A stretch of DNA of 13,854 nucleotides from a virus (lineage: Duplodnaviria > Heunggongvirae > Uroviricota > Caudoviricetes), in the IMG/VR virus record IMGVR_UViG_2585427748_000003; one strand, given 5' to 3'. The position numbers and the translations under genes are program-made. This document shows, piece by piece, positions 2,022 through 13,690 of this stretch; the first letter of the stretch is position 1; the number at the start of each line of letters is the position of its first letter. A model generated the notes under the pieces. The model was given only the letters and a program-made list of their open reading frames with translations, ran no database searches and had not been told where the DNA came from.

Positions 2022-2047
2022 AAAAGCCCTGTTAGCGCAGGGCTTTT
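2022..2047 (-). terminator. Hairpin overlapping the stop codon of the ImmA-like gene (AAAAGCCCTG-ttagcg-CAGGGCTTTT); putative terminator
   Basis: 10-bp stem including A/T pairs, 6-nt loop, short T-run on both strands. Confidence 0.45.
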
Positions 2048-2522
2048 ACATATAAAAATCGAACGACATCTGTTGTGTTCTCACGCCAATTGTTTCCAGT
2101 ACGATATCCGCAAATGTATCTGCCTGCCATTCTGCATCCTCAATACGAGTAGGTTCTTTAACTGAAAAGTGTAAAACTGCTTTGTGTCCAAGAAGCAAAT
2201 GACCTAGCTCGTGGAAGATAACAGCAAGTGCATGCTCTTCCCCAAGGCAAGCATTCACATATATTTTATTGGGAACCGTAATTGTTAGAGAAGCGGGGTC
2301 ACAATGTCCGATAGTTAGATCATACGTCAGAGCCTCCCACTCTTTGTCGGTCCTGACGTCAAGAGTAACCCCATAAATTGACAGGCTTTCAAAGAACATA
2401 TCATAACGCTTTCTTTTGCGCTTTGAGGCTGTAAGACCAATAGCATTACAGAAGTTTATAGCTCTGTAGGCTATTTCTTCTTCTTGCATCGGTGACACCC
2501 TGTTACCTCTCATTTGATACAT
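2046..2522 (-). CDS. ImmA/IrrE-family (COG2856-like) zinc metallopeptidase
   Basis: 158-aa ORF with HEXXH motif (HELGHLLLGH); start ATG lies 2 nt after the stop of the upstream XRE gene, with GAGGGG SD inside that gene's 3' end (translational coupling). Confidence 0.8.
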   Translation of the reverse strand: MYQMRGNRVSPMQEEEIAYRAINFCNAIGLTASKRKRKRYDMFFESLSIYGVTLDVRTDKEWEALTYDLTIGHCDPASLTITVPNKIYVNACLGEEHALAVIFHELGHLLLGHKAVLHFSVKEPTRIEDAEWQADTFADIVLETIGVRTQQMSFDFYM

Positions 2523-2524
2523 AA

Positions 2525-2884
2525 TTACCCCTCATTGTTATTAATCTTTTGCAATAAATCTGCAAAACTCTTTAGCTGTTCCGGCGTAAACTGCGACTTA
2601 GCGAATCCCGCTACAAGCATTTTCTGTTGCTGAGACAAACCGTTTACTGGAACTGAGTCATTCGCAACTGCCGCTAGCTCCTGTAACCCTTCAATTTCTA
2701 CACCTTTGGCCTTGAAGTAAGAATCAATCTTCTTAACCCACTTCAGAGGTATTTTTTTGCTACCAGTTTCTAAACCGCTAAGAAACGCTGGCGTAGTGCC
2801 CAGTTCTTGAGACATAGTCAGAAGAGTACTGTCAGTATCGATCCTCGCTTTTCTAACGGCCTTACCGAATTCAGTGAGTGCCAT
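2525..2884 (-). CDS. XRE-family helix-turn-helix transcriptional regulator (ImmR-like partner)
   Basis: 119-aa ORF; N-terminal region fits the Cro/C1-type HTH pattern (..STLLTMSQELGTTPAFLSGLETG..). GAGGA SD 8 nt upstream of the ATG at 2884. Confidence 0.8.
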   Translation of the reverse strand: MALTEFGKAVRKARIDTDSTLLTMSQELGTTPAFLSGLETGSKKIPLKWVKKIDSYFKAKGVEIEGLQELAAVANDSVPVNGLSQQQKMLVAGFAKSQFTPEQLKSFADLLQKINNNEG

Positions 2885-3128: not shown

Positions 3129-3284
3129 TTACTCCTCAGGTTCGTAAGCTGTGAAGACAGCGACCTCCGTCTGGCCGGTTCGGATTCGTACCTCGCAGAG
3201 GTCTTTCCTCGTTACCAGTGCCGTCACAATGACGGTTAAACAGATGACGATCAGGGCGATTAGCATCGCCTTTTGCTGCTTCAT
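3129..3284 (-). CDS. hok: Hok/Gef-family type I toxin (small membrane peptide, 51 aa)
   Basis: Translation MKQQKAMLIALIVICLTVIVTALVTRKDLCEVRIRTGQTEVAVFTAYEPEE has the Hok/Gef hallmark (hydrophobic helix followed by conserved ..RKxLCEVxIRxGxxEVAxFxAYE..). AAGGAG SD 9 nt upstream. An in-frame upstream ATG at 3341 gives the track's 70-aa frame; whether that is a mok-like reading frame I cannot tell. Confidence 0.8.
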   Translation of the reverse strand: MKQQKAMLIALIVICLTVIVTALVTRKDLCEVRIRTGQTEVAVFTAYEPEE

Positions 3285-3329
3285 AGCCTGCTTCTCCTTG
3301 CCTTTCGGCACGTAAGAGGCTAACCTACG

Positions 3330-3400
3330 TGTGTAGAGCATAGATATGGCCTCAGATTAATGTTAAGCGTCTTGCCGGACGCGTAATGTTAACTGGGGCT
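3330..3400 (+). ncRNA. sok: Predicted Sok-like antisense RNA opposite the hok leader/upstream start region (approximate)
   Basis: By analogy with hok/sok loci only. Candidate plus-strand promoter TTGCCT (3298-3303), 17-bp spacer, TAACCT (3321-3326). No clear terminator found; boundaries are guesses. Confidence 0.2.
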
Positions 3401-3575: not shown

Positions 3576-3920
3576 TCATCGTAAAATATCCTCCACGCTT
3601 ATCAGTCCGTTCCGCTCCAGATAACTCATCGCCTTATCCGGTAATTTGCAGTCTGGCTTCGCTTTCCTCAGTTGCCAGGTTAACTGCTTTACCAGCATGG
3701 TTAACTCATCGACCAGACGCTGATATCCCACTGGTTTGTATTCATGCAATTTACCGGCTGGCTCTGCTGCCAGCGATACCAGTGCGATTTCCAGAACAGC
3801 AATATCCATCTTATATGTGCGGATGATGTCATGGTCGATTGTGCCCGGTATGCACAGTCTCTGTGCTTCAATAGTCTCCTCTGCGTGAGCTATTAACTGC
3901 TCTCTGGTAAAAGTCGTCAT
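3576..3920 (-). CDS. Hypothetical small phage protein (114 aa)
   Basis: ORF with AAGGGG SD; its ATG overlaps the stop of the upstream 55-aa ORF (ATGA). N-terminus [15 protein letters not shown].. resembles that of the 55-aa ORF. Confidence 0.6.
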
Positions 3921-4084
3921 GCCGTAGCCCCTTCTTGATATTTTTCAAACCAGAACACAACCGGCTCTGCTTCCAGCGATGCCAGCGCAATCCGTGCCAG
4001 TTCCATTTGTTCACCACGGGTAAGCCCGTTTTCAAGCGGGTTTTTAATGAACAATTCAATACGTTCTTTGGTAATAGTGGTCAT
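3917..4084 (-). CDS. Hypothetical small protein (55 aa), below the ORF-track length cutoff; short paralog of the N-terminal part of the 114-aa protein
   Basis: Hand translation [55 protein letters not shown]; strong AAGGAG SD 7 nt upstream of the ATG at 4084; stop overlaps the next start (ATGA). Confidence 0.6.
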
Positions 4085-4094
4085 GTGTTACTCC

Positions 4095-4358
4095 TTAACC
4101 CGCAGTGCTTTCAACTGATGAGGGGAACAAAATCTTTTCATCAAACCCTGCATTCATATCATGAACAGCAACACACCAATCCATCGACGAACGATTATCA
4201 AGAGCCTCCATGATTTCATCCATGCGGCGTAGGTCATACAGGTAAATGCTTTTATCGCCAATGGTGTAAAAGCCAATTTTTTTCGGTGATGGACAGCGAT
4301 CAAGAACTTCCTGTAATTCGTTCAACCATGCCCGTTCTTTTTTTGTCAAAGTTGCCAT
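4095..4358 (-). CDS. Hypothetical small protein (87 aa)
   Basis: Internal ATG at 4358 (MATLTKKERAWLNELQ..) preferred over the track's longer frame because an AAGGA SD sits 9 nt upstream and it abuts the stop of the upstream gene. Confidence 0.55.
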   Translation of the reverse strand: MATLTKKERAWLNELQEVLDRCPSPKKIGFYTIGDKSIYLYDLRRMDEIMEALDNRSSMDWCVAVHDMNAGFDEKILFPSSVESTAG

Positions 4359-9797: not shown

Positions 9798-12212
9798 ATG
9801 AGTAAAGTCTTTATTTGCGCCGCCATTCCGGACGAACAGGCAATAAAGGAAGAAGGTGCCGTCGCTGTAGCCACTGCCATTGAAGCCGGTGATGAACGTC
9901 GCGCCCGCGCAAAATTTCACTGGCAATTCCTGGAACATTATCCGGCTGCTCAGGACTGCGCTTATAAATTTCTTGTCTGCGAGGATAAACCCGGTATACC
10001 CCGCCCTGCCCTCGATTCCTGGGATGCTGAATATATGCAGGAAAACCGCTGGGATGAGGAGTCTGCTTCCTTTGTCCCGGTTGAGACTGAATCCGATCCG
10101 ATGAACGTCACTTTTGACAAGCTGGCCCCTGAAGTACAGAACGCTGTCATGGTTAAGTTCGACACATGTGAAAACATCACCGTTGATATGGTTATTAGCG
10201 CACAGGAATTGTTGCAGGAAGACATGGCAACATTCGACGGACATATCGTTGAAGCGTTGATGAAAATGCCAGATGTTAACGCCATGTATCCGGAGCTTAA
10301 GCTGCATGCCATCGGGTGGGTTAAGCATAAATGTAAGCCTGGTGCCAAATGGCCCGAAATTCAGGCAGAGATGCGCATCTGGAAAAAACGTCGCGAAGGT
10401 GAACGCAAGGAAACCGGAAAATACACGTCTGTTGTTGATCTCGCCCGCGCCAGAGTCAATCAACAGCACACTGAAAATTCAACAGGAAAAATCAGCCTGG
10501 TCATTGCTGCCATTCATCGCGAATACAAGCAGACATGGAAAACACTGGATGACGAACTGGCCTACGCTCTCTGGCCTGGTGATGTGGATGCCGGAAACAT
10601 TGACGGCAGCATCCATCGCTGGGCAAAAAATGAAGTTATCGACAACGACCGCGAAGACTGGAAGCGTATCTCGGCATCAATGCGCAAACAGCCTGATGCC
10701 CTTCGCTACGACCGCCAGACTATTTTTGGCCTTGTCCGTGAACGTCCGATCGACATTCACAAAGACCCTGTGGCACTGAACAAATACATTACTGAATACC
10801 TGACTACAAAGGGCGTGTTTGAAGATGAAGGAAGAAATCAGAGCGCAACTGATACTCTCTCGTCGCCAGTACCAGAAACTGATGCAGTGGAAACGGCAAT
10901 TCCGGACAACGAAAAAACCGAATGCAAAGTGGAAGTCGAACCATCTGTAGAGCGTGAGGGGCCGTTCTACTTCCTCTTCACCGACAAGGATGGCGAAAAA
11001 TACGGTCGCGCAAACAAACTTTCTGGTCTGGATAAGGCACTGGCTGCCGGGGCTACTGAAATCACGAAAGAAGAATATTTCGCCCACAAAAACGGTACAT
11101 ACTCAGGTTCACAACAAAATACTGGTGCATCTGACACGACCGCACAACCAGGGCCGGTAAAAGTTACCGCTGACGAAGTAAACAAAATTATGCAGGCAGC
11201 CAATATCAGCCAGCCTGACGCCGATAAGTTGCTTGCTGCCTCTCGCGGAGAATTTGTTGCAGGGATTAGCGACCCGAATGATCCGAAATGGGTTAAGGGG
11301 ATCCAGACCCGCGATTCTGTAAACCAGAACCAGCATGAATCGGAACGGAACTACCAAAAAGCGGAACAAAACAGCCCAAATGCGTTACAAAACGAGCCAG
11401 AAACGAAACAGCCTGAACCAGTGGCGCAACAGGAAGTGGAAAAAGTCTGCACCGCCTGCGGTCAGACCGGCGGCGGCAATTGCCCTGATTGTGGCGCGGT
11501 GATGGGCGACGCAACATACCAGGAAACATTCGATGAAGAGTATCAGGTTGAAGTTCAGGAAGATGATCCGGAGGAAATGGAAGGCGCTGAACATCCACAC
11601 AAGGAGAACACTGGCGGCAATCAGCATCACGATAGCGATAATGAAACTGGCGAGACGGCAAATCACTCAATTAAGGTGAACAGTCATCACGTAATCACAT
11701 CCACCAGCAGGACGTGTGACCATCTAATGATAGACCTTGAAACCATGGGAAAAAATCCTGATGCCCCGATCATCTCAATAGGTGCAATATTTTTCGATCC
11801 GCAAACCGGAGATATGGGACCGGAATTTAGTAAGACTATCGATCTGGAAACTGCTGGCGGAGTCATTGATCGGGACACCATTAAATGGTGGCTTAAGCAA
11901 TCACGCGAAGCGCAATCTGCCATTATGACCGATGAAATCCCGTTAGATGATGCACTGTTACAATTGCGGGAATTTATCGACGAAAACTCCGGTGAATTTT
12001 TTGTTCAGGTCTGGGGAAATGGAGCCAACTTCGACAACACGATTTTGCGCCGTTCATACGAACGGCAGGGGATCCCCTGCCCGTGGCGTTACTACAACGA
12101 TCGCGATGTACGCACAATCGTTGAGCTGGGGAAAGCCATAGACTTCGATGCCAGAACGGCTATTCCATTCGAAGGTGAGCGCCATAATGCACTTGATGAC
12201 GCCCGTTACTAG
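9798..12212 (+). CDS. RecE/exodeoxyribonuclease VIII-like protein with a C-terminal DnaQ-like DEDDh 3'-5' exonuclease domain (about residues 644-804); ends at an in-frame TAG
   Basis: 804-aa ORF, GAGG SD 9 nt upstream, placed immediately upstream of xis-int as recE/exo is in lambdoid prophages. C-terminal motifs LMIDLETMG (Exo I), VWGNGANFDNT (Exo II), HNALDDARY (Exo III); Cys4 zinc-ribbon-like CTACGQTGGGNCPDCG in the linker. The RecE-like assignment of the N-terminal/linker region is from memory. Confidence 0.8.
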   Translation: MSKVFICAAIPDEQAIKEEGAVAVATAIEAGDERRARAKFHWQFLEHYPAAQDCAYKFLVCEDKPGIPRPALDSWDAEYMQENRWDEESASFVPVETESDPMNVTFDKLAPEVQNAVMVKFDTCENITVDMVISAQELLQEDMATFDGHIVEALMKMPDVNAMYPELKLHAIGWVKHKCKPGAKWPEIQAEMRIWKKRREGERKETGKYTSVVDLARARVNQQHTENSTGKISLVIAAIHREYKQTWKTLDDELAYALWPGDVDAGNIDGSIHRWAKNEVIDNDREDWKRISASMRKQPDALRYDRQTIFGLVRERPIDIHKDPVALNKYITEYLTTKGVFEDEGRNQSATDTLSSPVPETDAVETAIPDNEKTECKVEVEPSVEREGPFYFLFTDKDGEKYGRANKLSGLDKALAAGATEITKEEYFAHKNGTYSGSQQNTGASDTTAQPGPVKVTADEVNKIMQAANISQPDADKLLAASRGEFVAGISDPNDPKWVKGIQTRDSVNQNQHESERNYQKAEQNSPNALQNEPETKQPEPVAQQEVEKVCTACGQTGGGNCPDCGAVMGDATYQETFDEEYQVEVQEDDPEEMEGAEHPHKENTGGNQHHDSDNETGETANHSIKVNSHHVITSTSRTCDHLMIDLETMGKNPDAPIISIGAIFFDPQTGDMGPEFSKTIDLETAGGVIDRDTIKWWLKQSREAQSAIMTDEIPLDDALLQLREFIDENSGEFFVQVWGNGANFDNTILRRSYERQGIPCPWRYYNDRDVRTIVELGKAIDFDARTAIPFEGERHNALDDARY

Positions 12213-12333: not shown

Positions 12334-12582
12334 ATGGCAAGACTTATTCTGCTCACTGAGTGGGCAAAAGAGGAATTCAGTGAACCGGTCCCTACTCCGG
12401 GCACGTTAAGTAAATACGCTAAAGCCGGAATGATATTTCCTCTCCCCAAAAAAGTTGGAAGACGCTGGCGAGTGGATCCGCAAGCTCGCTTTGTCGGAAT
12501 GGTAAACAAGCCGGAGGTGATCGCCACAGATCACCCTGCTTTGAAGAGGATACTGGAAGATGGCGCGCCCGCGAAAATATAA
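12334..12582 (+). CDS. xis: Excisionase-like protein (lambdoid prophage Xis family)
   Basis: 82-aa basic protein directly upstream of int, overlapping it by 23 bp, as is usual for xis-int pairs; no convincing SD. Confidence 0.6.
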   Translation: MARLILLTEWAKEEFSEPVPTPGTLSKYAKAGMIFPLPKKVGRRWRVDPQARFVGMVNKPEVIATDHPALKRILEDGAPAKI

Positions 12583-13690
12583 AACCGATGTTCCGGGATT
12601 ATCTCCGTATTTTGACAAAAGAAATAACAAAGTTTACTGGCGTTACAGGCATCCCATAACAGGCAAAAATCACGGTCTCGGCAGTATTGACCAGAAACTG
12701 GCGGAAACCATTGCAGCAGAAGCGAACAGCCGTCTTGCCAGACAACAAATGGAGCAAATGCTCAGTCTGCAGGAGAAAATTATTAATGATACCGGCGGTT
12801 CATCAACCGTTTCCATTTTTCTGAATAATTACAGAAAAATTCAACAGGAAAGATATGAAAACGGAGAAATCAAACTCAACACGCTGAAACAGAAAGCGGC
12901 CCCTCTCAGGGTTTTTGATGAACGTTTTGGCACCAGACCGTTAGATGCCATAACCGTAAAGGATGTGGTATCGGTGCTGGAAGAGTACAAGTCCAGAGGA
13001 CATAACAGAATGGGACAAATTTTCAGGAAGGTACTGATCGATGTTTTCCGGGAGGCTCAGCAAACGGGCGATGCCCCGCCAGGCTTTAATCCTGCAGAAT
13101 CGGCAAAAAAACCACAGGTGCGGATATCAAGACAGCGACTGACTTTTGATGAGTGGACGATGATTTATAACGCAGCGGAAAAGGATGGTTACTTTTTACA
13201 GCGCGGTATGCTGCTGGCACTGATGACAGGCCAGCGCCTTTCAGATATTTGCAAAATGCAATTTTCGGATATCCGGGATGGTTATCTTCATGTCGAACAG
13301 CAAAAAACAGGAACCCGGATTGCCATCCCTCTGGCTCTGCGTTGCGATAAATTAAATCTCACCCTGGATGATGTGGTGTCATCCTGTCGCGATTGCGTTC
13401 TTAGTCCGTGGCTATTGCACCATCATCACGCGAAAGGGACAGCTAAGCGCGGCGGGATGGTTAAGCCAGCAACGTTAACCGTTGCATTTAAAAAAGCGCG
13501 GGATTCTGTGGATTACAACTGGCGTGCTAATGGCACCCCACCCTCTTTCCATGAGCAGAGATCTTTATCAGAGCGATTGTTCAGAGAGCAGGGAATTGAT
13601 ACCCAAATTTTGCTGGGTCATTCGAATCAAAAAATGACCGATATTTACAACGATGCACGCGGCAAGGAGTGGAAAAAACTGGTCATTTGA
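12560..13690 (+). CDS. int: Lambda-family tyrosine integrase
   Basis: 376-aa ORF with lambda Int-like architecture and catalytic-region blocks (..LALMTGQRLSDICKMQFSDIRDGYLHVEQQKTGTRIAIP.., ..PPSFHEQRSLSERLF.., ..LLGHSNQKMTDIYNDARGKEWKKLVI); GAGGA SD. Confidence 0.9.
   Translation: MARPRKYKTDVPGLSPYFDKRNNKVYWRYRHPITGKNHGLGSIDQKLAETIAAEANSRLARQQMEQMLSLQEKIINDTGGSSTVSIFLNNYRKIQQERYENGEIKLNTLKQKAAPLRVFDERFGTRPLDAITVKDVVSVLEEYKSRGHNRMGQIFRKVLIDVFREAQQTGDAPPGFNPAESAKKPQVRISRQRLTFDEWTMIYNAAEKDGYFLQRGMLLALMTGQRLSDICKMQFSDIRDGYLHVEQQKTGTRIAIPLALRCDKLNLTLDDVVSSCRDCVLSPWLLHHHHAKGTAKRGGMVKPATLTVAFKKARDSVDYNWRANGTPPSFHEQRSLSERLFREQGIDTQILLGHSNQKMTDIYNDARGKEWKKLVI

What the first reader, a model, noticed from the sequence alone, without database searches (positions are those of the whole stretch)
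3576..4084. Unannotated 55-aa ORF that is a short paralog of the adjacent 114-aa protein
Below the track's cutoff, an ORF at 3917-4084 has an excellent AAGGAG SD and a stop overlapping the next start. Its product ([12 protein letters not shown]...[18 protein letters not shown]...) parallels the first half of the downstream protein ([12 protein letters not shown]...[21 protein letters not shown]...). A tandem duplication with truncation suggests a diversifying small-protein family.
Basis: seen in the sequence. Interest (0 to 1): 0.45.

Follow-up and report, generated by a model that had tools for sequence, protein, structure and literature searches.

The report
Short EaA-type module gene beside paralog
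The 55-codon gene is real and does share a small two-helix domain with its 114-codon neighbour, but the pair was assembled by the ordinary module shuffling of lambda-like prophage accessory genes (the P22 EaA family), not by a local duplication.

Summary
On the minus strand, a 55-aa ORF (3917-4084) has an AAGGAG ribosome-binding site. Its stop overlaps the start (ATGA) of the 114-aa gene (3576-3920). The two proteins are significantly similar (BLASTP E=1e-5; 0 of 5000 shuffles reach the score). It is not unannotated everywhere: RefSeq lists it as WP_000207997.1.

Residues 1-41 of the short protein are the N-terminal module of the P22 EaA / HK620 HkaE family. That module is 86-98% identical in many longer Salmonella and E. 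coli phage proteins, but only about 33% identical to the neighbour. Its 14-residue tail is identical to the end of an HNH endonuclease gene that precedes the 114-aa gene in other prophages. The 114-aa protein is itself mosaic: a different class of the same module joined to a C-terminal module that also ends many longer proteins.

AlphaFold predicts the module as a helical hairpin, with no informative structural match. Module classes differ in the middle and share their ends down to the DNA. A natural 101-aa allele is an exact recombinant between the two motif copies (203-bp deletion).

This is a known kind of phage mosaicism. Function remains unknown, and interest is low to moderate.

The parts
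3917..4084 (-). 55-aa ORF ([12 protein letters not shown]...EGATA), a real gene made of the EaA-type N-module plus a short tail
   Evidence: ORF list. Annotated as WP_000207997.1 in an identical E. coli prophage. Intact in 23 IMG/VR loci. The whole 55+114 pair is present in 324 of 5426 complete E. coli genomes.
4091..4096 (-). Shine-Dalgarno AAGGAG of the 55-aa ORF, overlapping the TAA stop (4095-4097) of the upstream 87-aa gene
   Evidence: Read directly from the sequence.
3962..4084 (-). Class-A N-module (codons 1-41); predicted helical hairpin (helices 6-14 and 23-38)
   Evidence: 86-98% identical to the N-termini of P22 EaA, HK620 HkaE and DUF551/DUF550 proteins. Homology to other loci stops 122-130 nt after the ATG. 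AF2 pLDDT is 83-91 over this part. Variant codons among 30 alleles: 32 synonymous, 15 non-synonymous.
3962..3991 (-). Junction motif copy 1: ATT GCG CTG GCA TCG CTG GAA GCA GAG CCG ([10 protein letters not shown])
   Evidence: Conserved at the DNA level, synonymous sites included, across 6 module classes. It is the crossover site in P0151 and at the class-A/tail joint.
3917..3961 (-). Tail [14 protein letters not shown] plus stop; carries the ribosome-binding region and the ATGA start overlap of the 114-aa gene
   Evidence: DNA identical from GTTGTGTTCTGG onward to the 3' end of the ArgO145 gp11 HNH endonuclease gene. The same tail follows other N-module classes (P0110, P0120) and precedes a class-E gene in L021. 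Predicted disordered, pLDDT 52-62.
3576..3920 (-). 114-aa gene (WP_000206826.1), a two-module protein
3759..3920 (-). Class-B N-module of the 114-aa protein (codons 1-54); predicted longer helical hairpin (helices 6-26 and 30-51)
   Evidence: AF2 pLDDT is 82-95. The same module is fused to DUF551 or other C-termini in P0182, P0184 and P0186.
3759..3788 (-). Junction motif copy 2: ATC GCA CTG GTA TCG CTG GCA GCA GAG CCA ([10 protein letters not shown])
3579..3734 (-). C-module (about codons 63-114: ...[43 protein letters not shown])
   Evidence: Matches the C-terminal ends of phrog_660, 924, 8171 and 30109. Found at the C-terminus of 160-199-aa proteins. Predicted helices 63-87, 95-103 and 109-113. 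The only weak PDB sequence hits are designed coiled coils.
4095..4358 (-). Upstream 87-aa gene (phrog_1714), same operon; travels with the short gene in many loci
   Evidence: In many loci homology to the window continues 283-300 nt upstream of the 55-aa ATG. The 87-aa gene also precedes P0151.

Best explanation
The 55-aa ORF is a genuine short gene in the accessory, nin-like region of a Rac/Qin-type lambdoid prophage of E. coli. It consists of the N-terminal module of the P22 EaA / HK620 HkaE family joined to a 14-residue unstructured tail. That module is a ~40-residue helical hairpin ending in [10 protein letters not shown]. The tail is really the upstream flank of the 114-aa gene: it holds that gene's ribosome-binding region and the ATGA start overlap.

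The 114-aa protein carries a divergent class of the same hairpin, fused through a disordered linker to a widely shared helical C-module. So the two genes are paralogous at the level of one module.

The arrangement was built by recombination between different phages, not by local duplication. The exchanges occurred at short conserved junction sequences: the gene start ATGACCACTWTTACC and the motif TCGCTGGAAGCAGAGCCGGT. Because the motif now occurs twice in direct orientation 203 bp apart, the pair is itself recombinogenic. A natural allele (P0151, 101 aa) is the exact crossover product.

Shown here: the module boundaries, the mosaic relationships, the crossover product, and purifying selection on the module.

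Inferred: (i) the exchanges were made by homology-driven recombination that tolerates short or diverged homology, as shown experimentally for lambdoid phages (PMC3945230). (ii) The hairpin is a protein-protein interaction or oligomerisation domain that carries variable C-terminal domains. (iii) The short ORF's most secure role is to deliver ribosomes to the coupled 114-aa start. Any activity of the free hairpin, such as pairing with hairpin-bearing paralogues, is speculative.
For: Real similarity.

Identity of the N-module: the first 41-44 residues are 86-98% identical to P22 EaA, HK620 HkaE and DUF551/DUF550 proteins, after which the sequences diverge completely.

Sharp DNA boundaries: in 80 viral loci, homology ends 122-130 nt after the ATG. 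Upstream it ends within 6-19 nt of the ATG or continues past 283 nt. E. coli genome matches break at window ~3958-3971.

Tail: identical to the end of the ArgO145 HNH gene, which precedes a 99%-identical 114-aa gene with the same ATGA overlap. The HNH-tail junction is present in 385 of 5426 E. coli genomes and the 55+114 pair in 324.

The 114-aa protein is mosaic: its conserved C-part is combined with at least 6 N-module classes. Its own N-module occurs on DUF551 proteins, and its C-module occurs on 160-199-aa proteins.

Crossover product: the P0151 gene is 100% identical to the 55-aa gene over nt 1-112 and 100% identical to the 114-aa gene thereafter. The switch lies inside the shared ATCGCTGG. 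The context is the same (87-aa gene, then the 101-aa gene, then hok), with 250/250 identical bases downstream.

Protein-level selection: 32 synonymous versus 15 non-synonymous variant codons in 30 class-A alleles.

Fold: hairpins with pLDDT 82-95 in both models, with disordered linker and tail.

Family size and position: 2270 representative clusters, with matches almost always starting at residue 1. Of 111 representatives, 34 carry DUF551, 1 carries the dATP/dGTP pyrophosphohydrolase domain, and the rest have no Pfam domain.

Operon packing: no promoter-like or terminator-like signal above chance between the genes.
Against: No experiment or expression data bear on the 55-aa product, so function is inferred from a generic fold. 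Foldseek against the PDB gives nothing below E=0.6.

The class-A/tail joint shares only ~8-13 nt of identity. It could therefore reflect microhomology-mediated (illegitimate) joining rather than homologous recombination.

The direction of the P0151 event is inferred, not shown: deletion of the pair versus P0151 as a parent.

DNA conservation of the motif across classes could partly reflect codon preference (CTG) and shared ancestry.

The purifying-selection signal comes mostly from long family members, not from the 55-aa gene itself, whose alleles are nearly identical.
Confidence: 0.75

Rival explanations
1. One reading: the short ORF arose in place by tandem duplication of the 114-aa gene, or of its 5' half, followed by truncation. 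The pair would then be a locally diversifying small-protein family.
For: The genes are adjacent, on the same strand, and share a significant N-terminal similarity. Several phages carry 2-3 module-bearing genes within 4 kb.
Against: Identity between the two is only ~33%, while each has 86-100% identical copies of its module in other gene contexts. DNA similarity is limited to the two conserved ends. The tail derives from the flank shared with an HNH gene, not from the 114-aa gene. Other prophages have the 114-aa gene without the 55-aa ORF.
Confidence: 0.05
2. The 55-aa ORF is a non-functional stub: a truncated EaA gene left by a recombination accident. It persists only because the event is recent and because its reading frame feeds ribosomes to the 114-aa gene.
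For: The joint sits on very short homology. The tail is predicted disordered. The effector domains seen in long family members are missing. Another phage record annotates a 'Truncated P22 EaA protein'. The 55-aa alleles are nearly identical, so intactness says little about selection.
Against: The same tail is found on at least two other N-module classes as intact 54-61-aa ORFs (P0110, P0120). The HNH gene's last 35 residues look like a diverged helix 2 plus tail, suggesting an old short-ORF lineage. The SD is strong, and the ORF is intact in 324 E. coli genomes.
Confidence: 0.3
3. The 55-aa protein is a functional minimal family member. As a free hairpin, it pairs with the hairpins of longer paralogues (such as the 114-aa protein) and modulates their assembly or activity.
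For: Both carry the same predicted hairpin with a conserved base. The two genes are translationally coupled and so co-expressed. Short module-plus-tail ORFs recur with different module classes. The module is under purifying selection.
Against: There is no interaction, structure or expression evidence. The classes differ strongly in the hairpin body and length (41 versus 54 residues), which argues against specific heteropairing. Many prophages have the 114-aa gene with an HNH gene instead.
Confidence: 0.2
4. The resemblance is chance or compositional: two small helical, Ala/Leu/Glu-rich proteins.
For: The proteins are short, and the identities cluster in two small patches.
Against: 0 of 5000 shuffles reach the score. 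Both hit the same four PHROG profiles. A natural recombinant joins them exactly at the shared motif.
Confidence: 0.01

Closest known systems
P22 EaA / HK620 HkaE ('Eaa protein') family of early-region accessory proteins of P22-like and lambdoid phages; function unknown
   Same: The first 41-44 residues are 86-93% identical to P22 EaA and HK620 HkaE. Both hit the same PHROG profiles. The location is also shared: the dispensable early region of a temperate enterobacterial phage.
   Different: P22 EaA is 317 aa (PMC4837284 table). Long members usually continue through further shared blocks (PLYAAPPAPVVP, GWNACRAAML) into DUF551. The 55-aa protein stops 14 residues after the first module.
Lambda/Stx-phage Ea22 proteins: a mosaic of a shared N-terminal segment and coiled coil with swappable C-terminal domains, including DUF551 (PMC10834534)
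   Same: The design principle is the same: a conserved helical N-terminal part carries interchangeable C-terminal domains, with DUF551 among the partners. Ea22 is oligomeric, which is the basis for the oligomerisation inference here.
   Different: There is no sequence membership. Neither protein, nor any of 111 family representatives, matches Pfam Ead_Ea22 PF13935. The genes here lie between the replication genes and hok/Q, not between exo and xis.
Mosaic formation in lambdoid phages by homology-driven recombination tolerant of divergence (De Paepe et al. 2014, PMC3945230)
   Same: Exchanged blocks are bordered by short conserved sequences, and a recombinant (P0151) has its crossover inside the shared motif.
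   Different: The homologies here are very short (8-20 nt) and lie inside coding sequence at domain boundaries. No recombination assay was done.
ArgO145 gp11-type phage HNH endonuclease
   Same: The last 14 residues and the last ~45 nt are identical. The ATGA coupling to the 114-aa gene is the same.
   Different: The 55-aa protein has no HNH domain. Only the C-terminal ~35 residues of the HNH protein resemble it, corresponding to helix 2 plus tail.

Membership tests
P22 EaA / HK620 HkaE family (PHROG 3323 / 60 / 660) | N-terminal module MTTITKE...[13 protein letters not shown], detectable by profile or BLAST | tested here: met
   55 aa: phrog_3323 E=1.3e-19, phrog_60 E=4.3e-18; 86% identity to P22 EaA over aa 1-44 and 93% to HK620 HkaE. 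114 aa: phrog_660 E=8e-43, phrog_60 E=1.5e-7, phrog_3323 E=7e-4.
P22 EaA / HK620 HkaE family (PHROG 3323 / 60 / 660) | Full-length architecture: N-module followed by further shared blocks and usually a C-terminal domain such as DUF551 | tested here: not met
   The 55-aa protein ends 14 residues after the module. The 114-aa protein has a different, helical C-module and no Pfam domain.
P22 EaA / HK620 HkaE family (PHROG 3323 / 60 / 660) | Encoded in the accessory early region of a temperate enterobacterial phage or prophage | tested here: met
   The window carries an integrase, YdaS/YdaT, DUF977 and hokD. An identical region lies in E. coli prophages between DUF977 and hokD/Q.
Pfam Ead_Ea22 (PF13935) | Match to the Pfam model | tested here: not met
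   No Pfam hit for either protein at E<=1. 0 of 111 family representatives match PF13935.
Pfam DUF551 (PF04448) / dATP-dGTP pyrophosphohydrolase (PF04447) | Match to the Pfam model | tested here: not met
   No hit in the 55-aa or 114-aa proteins. 34 of 111 relatives carry DUF551 and 1 carries PF04447, downstream of the N-module.
Local tandem duplicate (in-situ paralog pair) | The two copies are each other's closest relatives, with similarity running along the duplicated DNA | tested here: not met
   Searches show closer relatives elsewhere. Searches show DNA similarity only at the two conserved ends.
HNH endonuclease (phrog_2118) | HNH catalytic domain | tested here: not met
   Only residues 31-54 match the extreme C-terminus of the profile (positions 252-275 of 301, E=2e-3). 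The shared part is the tail.
Known anti-phage defence proteins (PADLOC-DB) | Match to any PADLOC model | tested here: not met
   No hit for the 55-aa, 114-aa or 87-aa proteins at E<=0.01.
Oligomerising helical-hairpin / coiled-coil N-domain (functional analogy with Ea22) | Self-association of the hairpin | not testable with these tools
   Only monomer predictions were available. This needs multimer modelling or SEC-MALS / two-hybrid assays.

The most novel reading that the evidence does not exclude
The EaA-type N-module may be a cassette-like, diversity-bearing helical hairpin. The base of the hairpin is formed by the first ~8 and last ~10 residues and is conserved down to synonymous sites. 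It would serve both as a structural socket and as recombination handles. The body of the hairpin exists in many unrelated classes of different length. Phages would swap these classes, and keep free-standing short forms such as the 55-aa protein, to vary or mask an interaction surface in a conflict with host or rival-phage systems. The tandem 55/114 pair would then be an active switch that can collapse to a single 101-aa gene carrying the other hairpin class.
Probability: 0.1. Interest if true: 0.6.

Novelty: new member of a known kind. Interest (0 to 1): 0.25.

Why it matters
It matters little as a discovery. The gene is already in RefSeq, one phage record calls it an EaA protein, and mosaicism of lambdoid accessory genes is textbook knowledge.

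It is useful as a clean worked example in three ways. First, it maps a small, Pfam-less N-terminal domain that heads more than two thousand protein clusters of enterobacterial prophages. Second, it shows domain-boundary motifs of 8-20 nt acting as exchange points. Third, it provides a natural before-and-after pair (55+114 versus the 101-aa fusion) that could be used to measure short-homology recombination in prophages.

It also warns annotators. Adjacent 'paralogous' small ORFs in prophage accessory regions are usually products of module shuffling, not local duplications.

Tried and rejected
- **Family libraries.** Pfam, NCBIfam and PADLOC scans of the 55-aa and 114-aa proteins gave no hits.
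- **Foldseek.** The 114-aa model against the PDB returned only generic helical hairpins, best E=0.67.
- **PDB sequence search.** The profile search returned only weak hits to designed coiled coils on the C-module helix.
- **Third paralogue.** I tested whether the upstream 87-aa protein, which also starts MATLTKKE, is a third paralogue. It is not significant: 1094 of 5000 shuffles reach its score against the 55-aa protein, and 327 of 5000 against the 114-aa protein.
- **Counting the P0151 junction.** I tried an 80-nt junction query against E. coli genomes. The tool joins the two halves across the 203-bp gap, so the 337 'full-coverage' records are mostly the tandem arrangement. Only the 18 records at >=99% identity are candidate true fusions, which is a soft number.
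- **Programmed frameshift.** I considered a programmed frameshift fusing the two ORFs, because 137-168-aa fusion proteins exist in Logan/ENA assemblies (P0121, P0122, P0144). They differ from one another by small indels and occur on 1-2 contigs each. I read them as assembly errors or rare mutants.
- **Terminator-like hairpin.** A hairpin inside the motif (3960-3977) is not above chance: 4 found against 2.7 expected.
- **Literature.** Searches found no functional study of EaA.

Full report
**1. The observation.** The two ORFs exist as described, but on the minus strand: 55 aa at 3917-4084 and 114 aa at 3576-3920.
- The short ORF has AAGGAG at 4091-4096, six bases before its ATG. This site overlaps the TAA stop of an upstream 87-aa gene.
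- Its TGA overlaps the ATG of the 114-aa gene as ATGA.
- No promoter-like or terminator-like site above chance separates the genes, so they read as one tightly packed minus-strand operon.
- BLASTP of the two products gives 18/54 identities, E=1e-5.
- The Smith-Waterman score is 56, against a shuffled mean of 23.2 (sd 4.0). None of 5000 shuffles reaches it. Without the first eight residues, 2 of 5000 do.
- Both proteins hit the same PHROG profiles with their N-terminal parts: phrog_3323, 60, 660 and 5117.

The similarity is therefore real. In an identical E. coli prophage, RefSeq lists both genes as hypothetical proteins: WP_000207997.1 and WP_000206826.1. One phage record labels the short one 'EaA protein'.

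**2. Context.** The window is a Rac/Qin-like lambdoid prophage of E. coli. It carries:
- an integrase, an 804-aa protein with a C-terminal exonuclease domain, and YdaS/YdaT-type regulators;
- a replication-region HTH protein and a DUF977 protein;
- then a run of small genes: 70 aa, DUF4014, 87 aa, 55 aa and 114 aa;
- then hokD.

**3. What the 55-aa gene is made of.**

*N-module.* Database homologues show that residues 1-41/42 ([42 protein letters not shown]) recur at 86-98% identity as the N-terminus of many longer proteins. These come from Salmonella, E. coli, Enterobacter and Yersinia phages. They are named Eaa/EaA, DUF551- or DUF550-containing, or hypothetical. Directly after ...LEAEPV they diverge completely. 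tblastn against phage records shows 86% identity to P22 EaA over aa 1-44 and 93% to HK620 HkaE.

*DNA boundaries.* In 80 viral loci, ungapped homology to the window ends 122-130 nt after the ATG. Upstream it ends within 6-19 nt of the ATG or continues for more than 283 nt into the 87-aa gene. Megablast of 3576-4084 against 5426 complete E. coli genomes shows the same break, at window ~3958-3971:
- 324 genomes have the whole pair;
- others match only the 114-aa gene plus the tail, annotated 'HNH endonuclease';
- others match only the N-module, inside DUF551, DUF550 or pyrophosphohydrolase genes.

*Tail.* The tail [15 protein letters not shown] and its DNA from GTTGTGTTCTGG to the ATGA are identical to the end of the ArgO145 gp11 HNH endonuclease gene. 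In ArgO145 that gene precedes a 99%-identical 114-aa gene with the same overlap. That HNH-tail junction occurs in 385 E. coli genomes. The same tail also:
- closes short ORFs that carry other N-module classes (P0110, 54 aa; P0120, 61 aa);
- precedes a class-E module gene in L021.

The last 35 residues of the HNH protein resemble helix 2 plus tail at 57% identity. This suggests the HNH gene once invaded such a short ORF.

**4. The 114-aa gene is also mosaic.**
- Its C-part ([24 protein letters not shown]...[28 protein letters not shown]) is nearly invariant among 101-140-aa relatives.
- The N-module in front of it comes in at least six unrelated classes. All begin M-T-T-x-T-K-E and end IALASLxAEP.
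- The window's own class-B module occurs fused to DUF551 or to other C-termini (P0182, P0184, P0186).
- The C-module ends many 160-199-aa proteins (phrog_660/924/8171/30109).

**5. Not a local duplication.** Each module has much closer relatives elsewhere than next door. DNA similarity between the two genes is limited to ATGAC(C/G)ACT(A/T)TTACC and a 20-nt stretch: ATCGCTGG(A/C)AGCAGAGCC(G/A)G. Across nine representatives of six module classes, the motif codons CTG GCA TCG CTG GAA GCA GAG CC are almost invariant even at synonymous sites, while the module bodies are unalignable. Within class A, the same codons do vary synonymously. I read this as the motif being repeatedly shared by recombination. 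Non-independence of the classes is a caveat.

**6. A natural recombinant.**
- P0151 (101 aa) is encoded in the same context: 87-aa gene, then the 101-aa gene, then hok.
- Its DNA is 100% identical to the 55-aa gene over nt 1-112 and 100% identical to the 114-aa gene from there to the stop.
- The switch lies inside the shared ATCGCTGG.
- Downstream, 250/250 bases are identical; upstream, 278/300.
- It differs from the window by a 203-bp deletion between the two motif copies.

Deletion of the tandem arrangement is the simplest direction, but that direction is inferred. The same 87-aa/101-aa cassette also sits next to an integrase among Ead_Ea22 genes in L086.

**7. Family size and partners.** A profile of N- plus C-modules hits 2270 representatives of 50%-identity clusters at E<=1e-3, and 389 at E<=1e-10. 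Matches nearly always start at residue 1, in proteins of 55-442 aa. Of 111 representatives, 34 carry DUF551, 1 carries the dATP/dGTP pyrophosphohydrolase domain, none carries Ead_Ea22, and 76 have no Pfam domain.

Copy number was counted in the 80 viral loci:
- 23 carry the 55+114 pair, and 7 of these have a third module-bearing ORF within 4 kb;
- of the other 57, 6 have two such ORFs, 48 have one, and 3 have none by my regex.

**8. Structure and selection.**
- The 114-aa AF2 model has mean pLDDT 75.8. It shows a confident hairpin (helices 6-26 and 30-51, pLDDT 82-95), a disordered linker at 52-62, then helices 63-87, 95-103 and 109-113.
- The 55-aa model has mean pLDDT 79.1. It shows a shorter hairpin (helices 6-14 and 23-38, pLDDT 83-91) and a disordered tail.
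- In both models the conserved start and the conserved motif lie together at the open end of the hairpin, and the variable part forms its body. This is read from the secondary-structure maps, so it is inference.
- Foldseek against the PDB finds nothing below E=0.6. A PDB sequence search finds only designed coiled coils on the C-module helix. PADLOC finds nothing.
- Among 30 DNA alleles of the class-A module, 32 variant codons are synonymous and 15 non-synonymous. The module is therefore under purifying selection as a protein, though mostly inside long family members.

**9. How it most likely works.**

*Origin (confidence about 0.75-0.8).*
- First, a class-A EaA-type gene recombined with the flank of the 114-aa gene at ...GAGCCGGTTGTG..., producing the 55-aa ORF.
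- Second, the resulting direct motif repeats can recombine and collapse the pair to the 101-aa form.
- Homology-driven exchange that tolerates divergence has been shown experimentally for lambdoid phages and their Rad52-like recombinases (PMC3945230). Whether it acts on homologies this short was not tested here.

*Function (confidence about 0.3).*
- The hairpin is probably an interaction or oligomerisation domain that carries variable C-terminal domains.
- This is by analogy with the mosaic, tetrameric Ea22 proteins, whose conserved N-terminal/coiled-coil part carries swappable C-terminal domains including DUF551 (PMC10834534).
- The analogy is functional only. Membership in Pfam Ead_Ea22 was tested and not met.
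- The most secure role of the 55-aa ORF is translational coupling to the 114-aa gene through the ATGA overlap. This is an inference from the anatomy.

**10. Verdict.** Interest is low to moderate.

Noticed in passing
window 4095-4358 (-): The upstream 87-aa gene (phrog_1714) starts MATLTKKER, resembling the M-T-T-x-T-K-E start of the module genes. P0137 (120 aa) is a 114-aa homologue with MATLTKEER prefixed to FTKEQLIAH. Overall similarity of the 87-aa protein to the 55-aa and 114-aa proteins is not significant. Gene starts may be a further exchange point.
   Followed up: partly
L003 2423-2788 (-) (ArgO145 gp11) and L021 ~480-905: The HNH endonuclease gene that replaces the 55-aa ORF in 385 E. 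coli genomes ends in a diverged copy of hairpin helix 2 plus the identical tail: [28 protein letters not shown]. It looks as if a mobile HNH gene inserted into a short module ORF.
   Followed up: partly
L086 2727-3306: The same cassette (87-aa gene plus the 101-aa fused gene) occurs in a different prophage region, just upstream of an integrase and downstream of three Ead_Ea22 genes. So the cassette moves between the nin-like and ea-like regions.
   Followed up: no
window 2046-2884 (-): A gene pair encodes an XRE-type HTH protein (119 aa) and a 158-aa protein with an HExxH motif (HELGHLLLGH). Both give weak PADLOC hits to capH/capP and RmrA-type models. The pair sits next to hokD, where the otherwise identical reference prophage has an IS421 copy.
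   Followed up: no
window 3129-3341 (-): A Hok/Gef type I toxin gene (Pfam E=2.9e-23). The longest ORF is 70 aa, whereas RefSeq annotates a 51-aa HokD from an internal start.
   Followed up: no
window 9798-12212 (+): An 804-aa ORF with a C-terminal Rv2179c-like 3'-5' exonuclease domain lies just upstream of the integrase gene (12560-13690). It is possibly the prophage's recombination exonuclease.
   Followed up: no
proteins P0121, P0122, P0144 (Logan/ENA assemblies): These 137-168-aa products fuse the 55-aa and 114-aa reading frames through small indels near the ATGA overlap or inside the short ORF. They are probably assembly errors or rare mutants, not programmed frameshifting.
   Followed up: partly
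long family members in L027-L083: Beyond the N-module, long EaA-type proteins are chains of further short conserved blocks separated by unrelated segments: PLYAAPPAPVVPEE, GWNACRAAMLQGKGE, and the DUF551 end HWMPLPEPPQE. The whole gene family appears to be built from junction motifs plus cassettes (consensus).
   Followed up: partly
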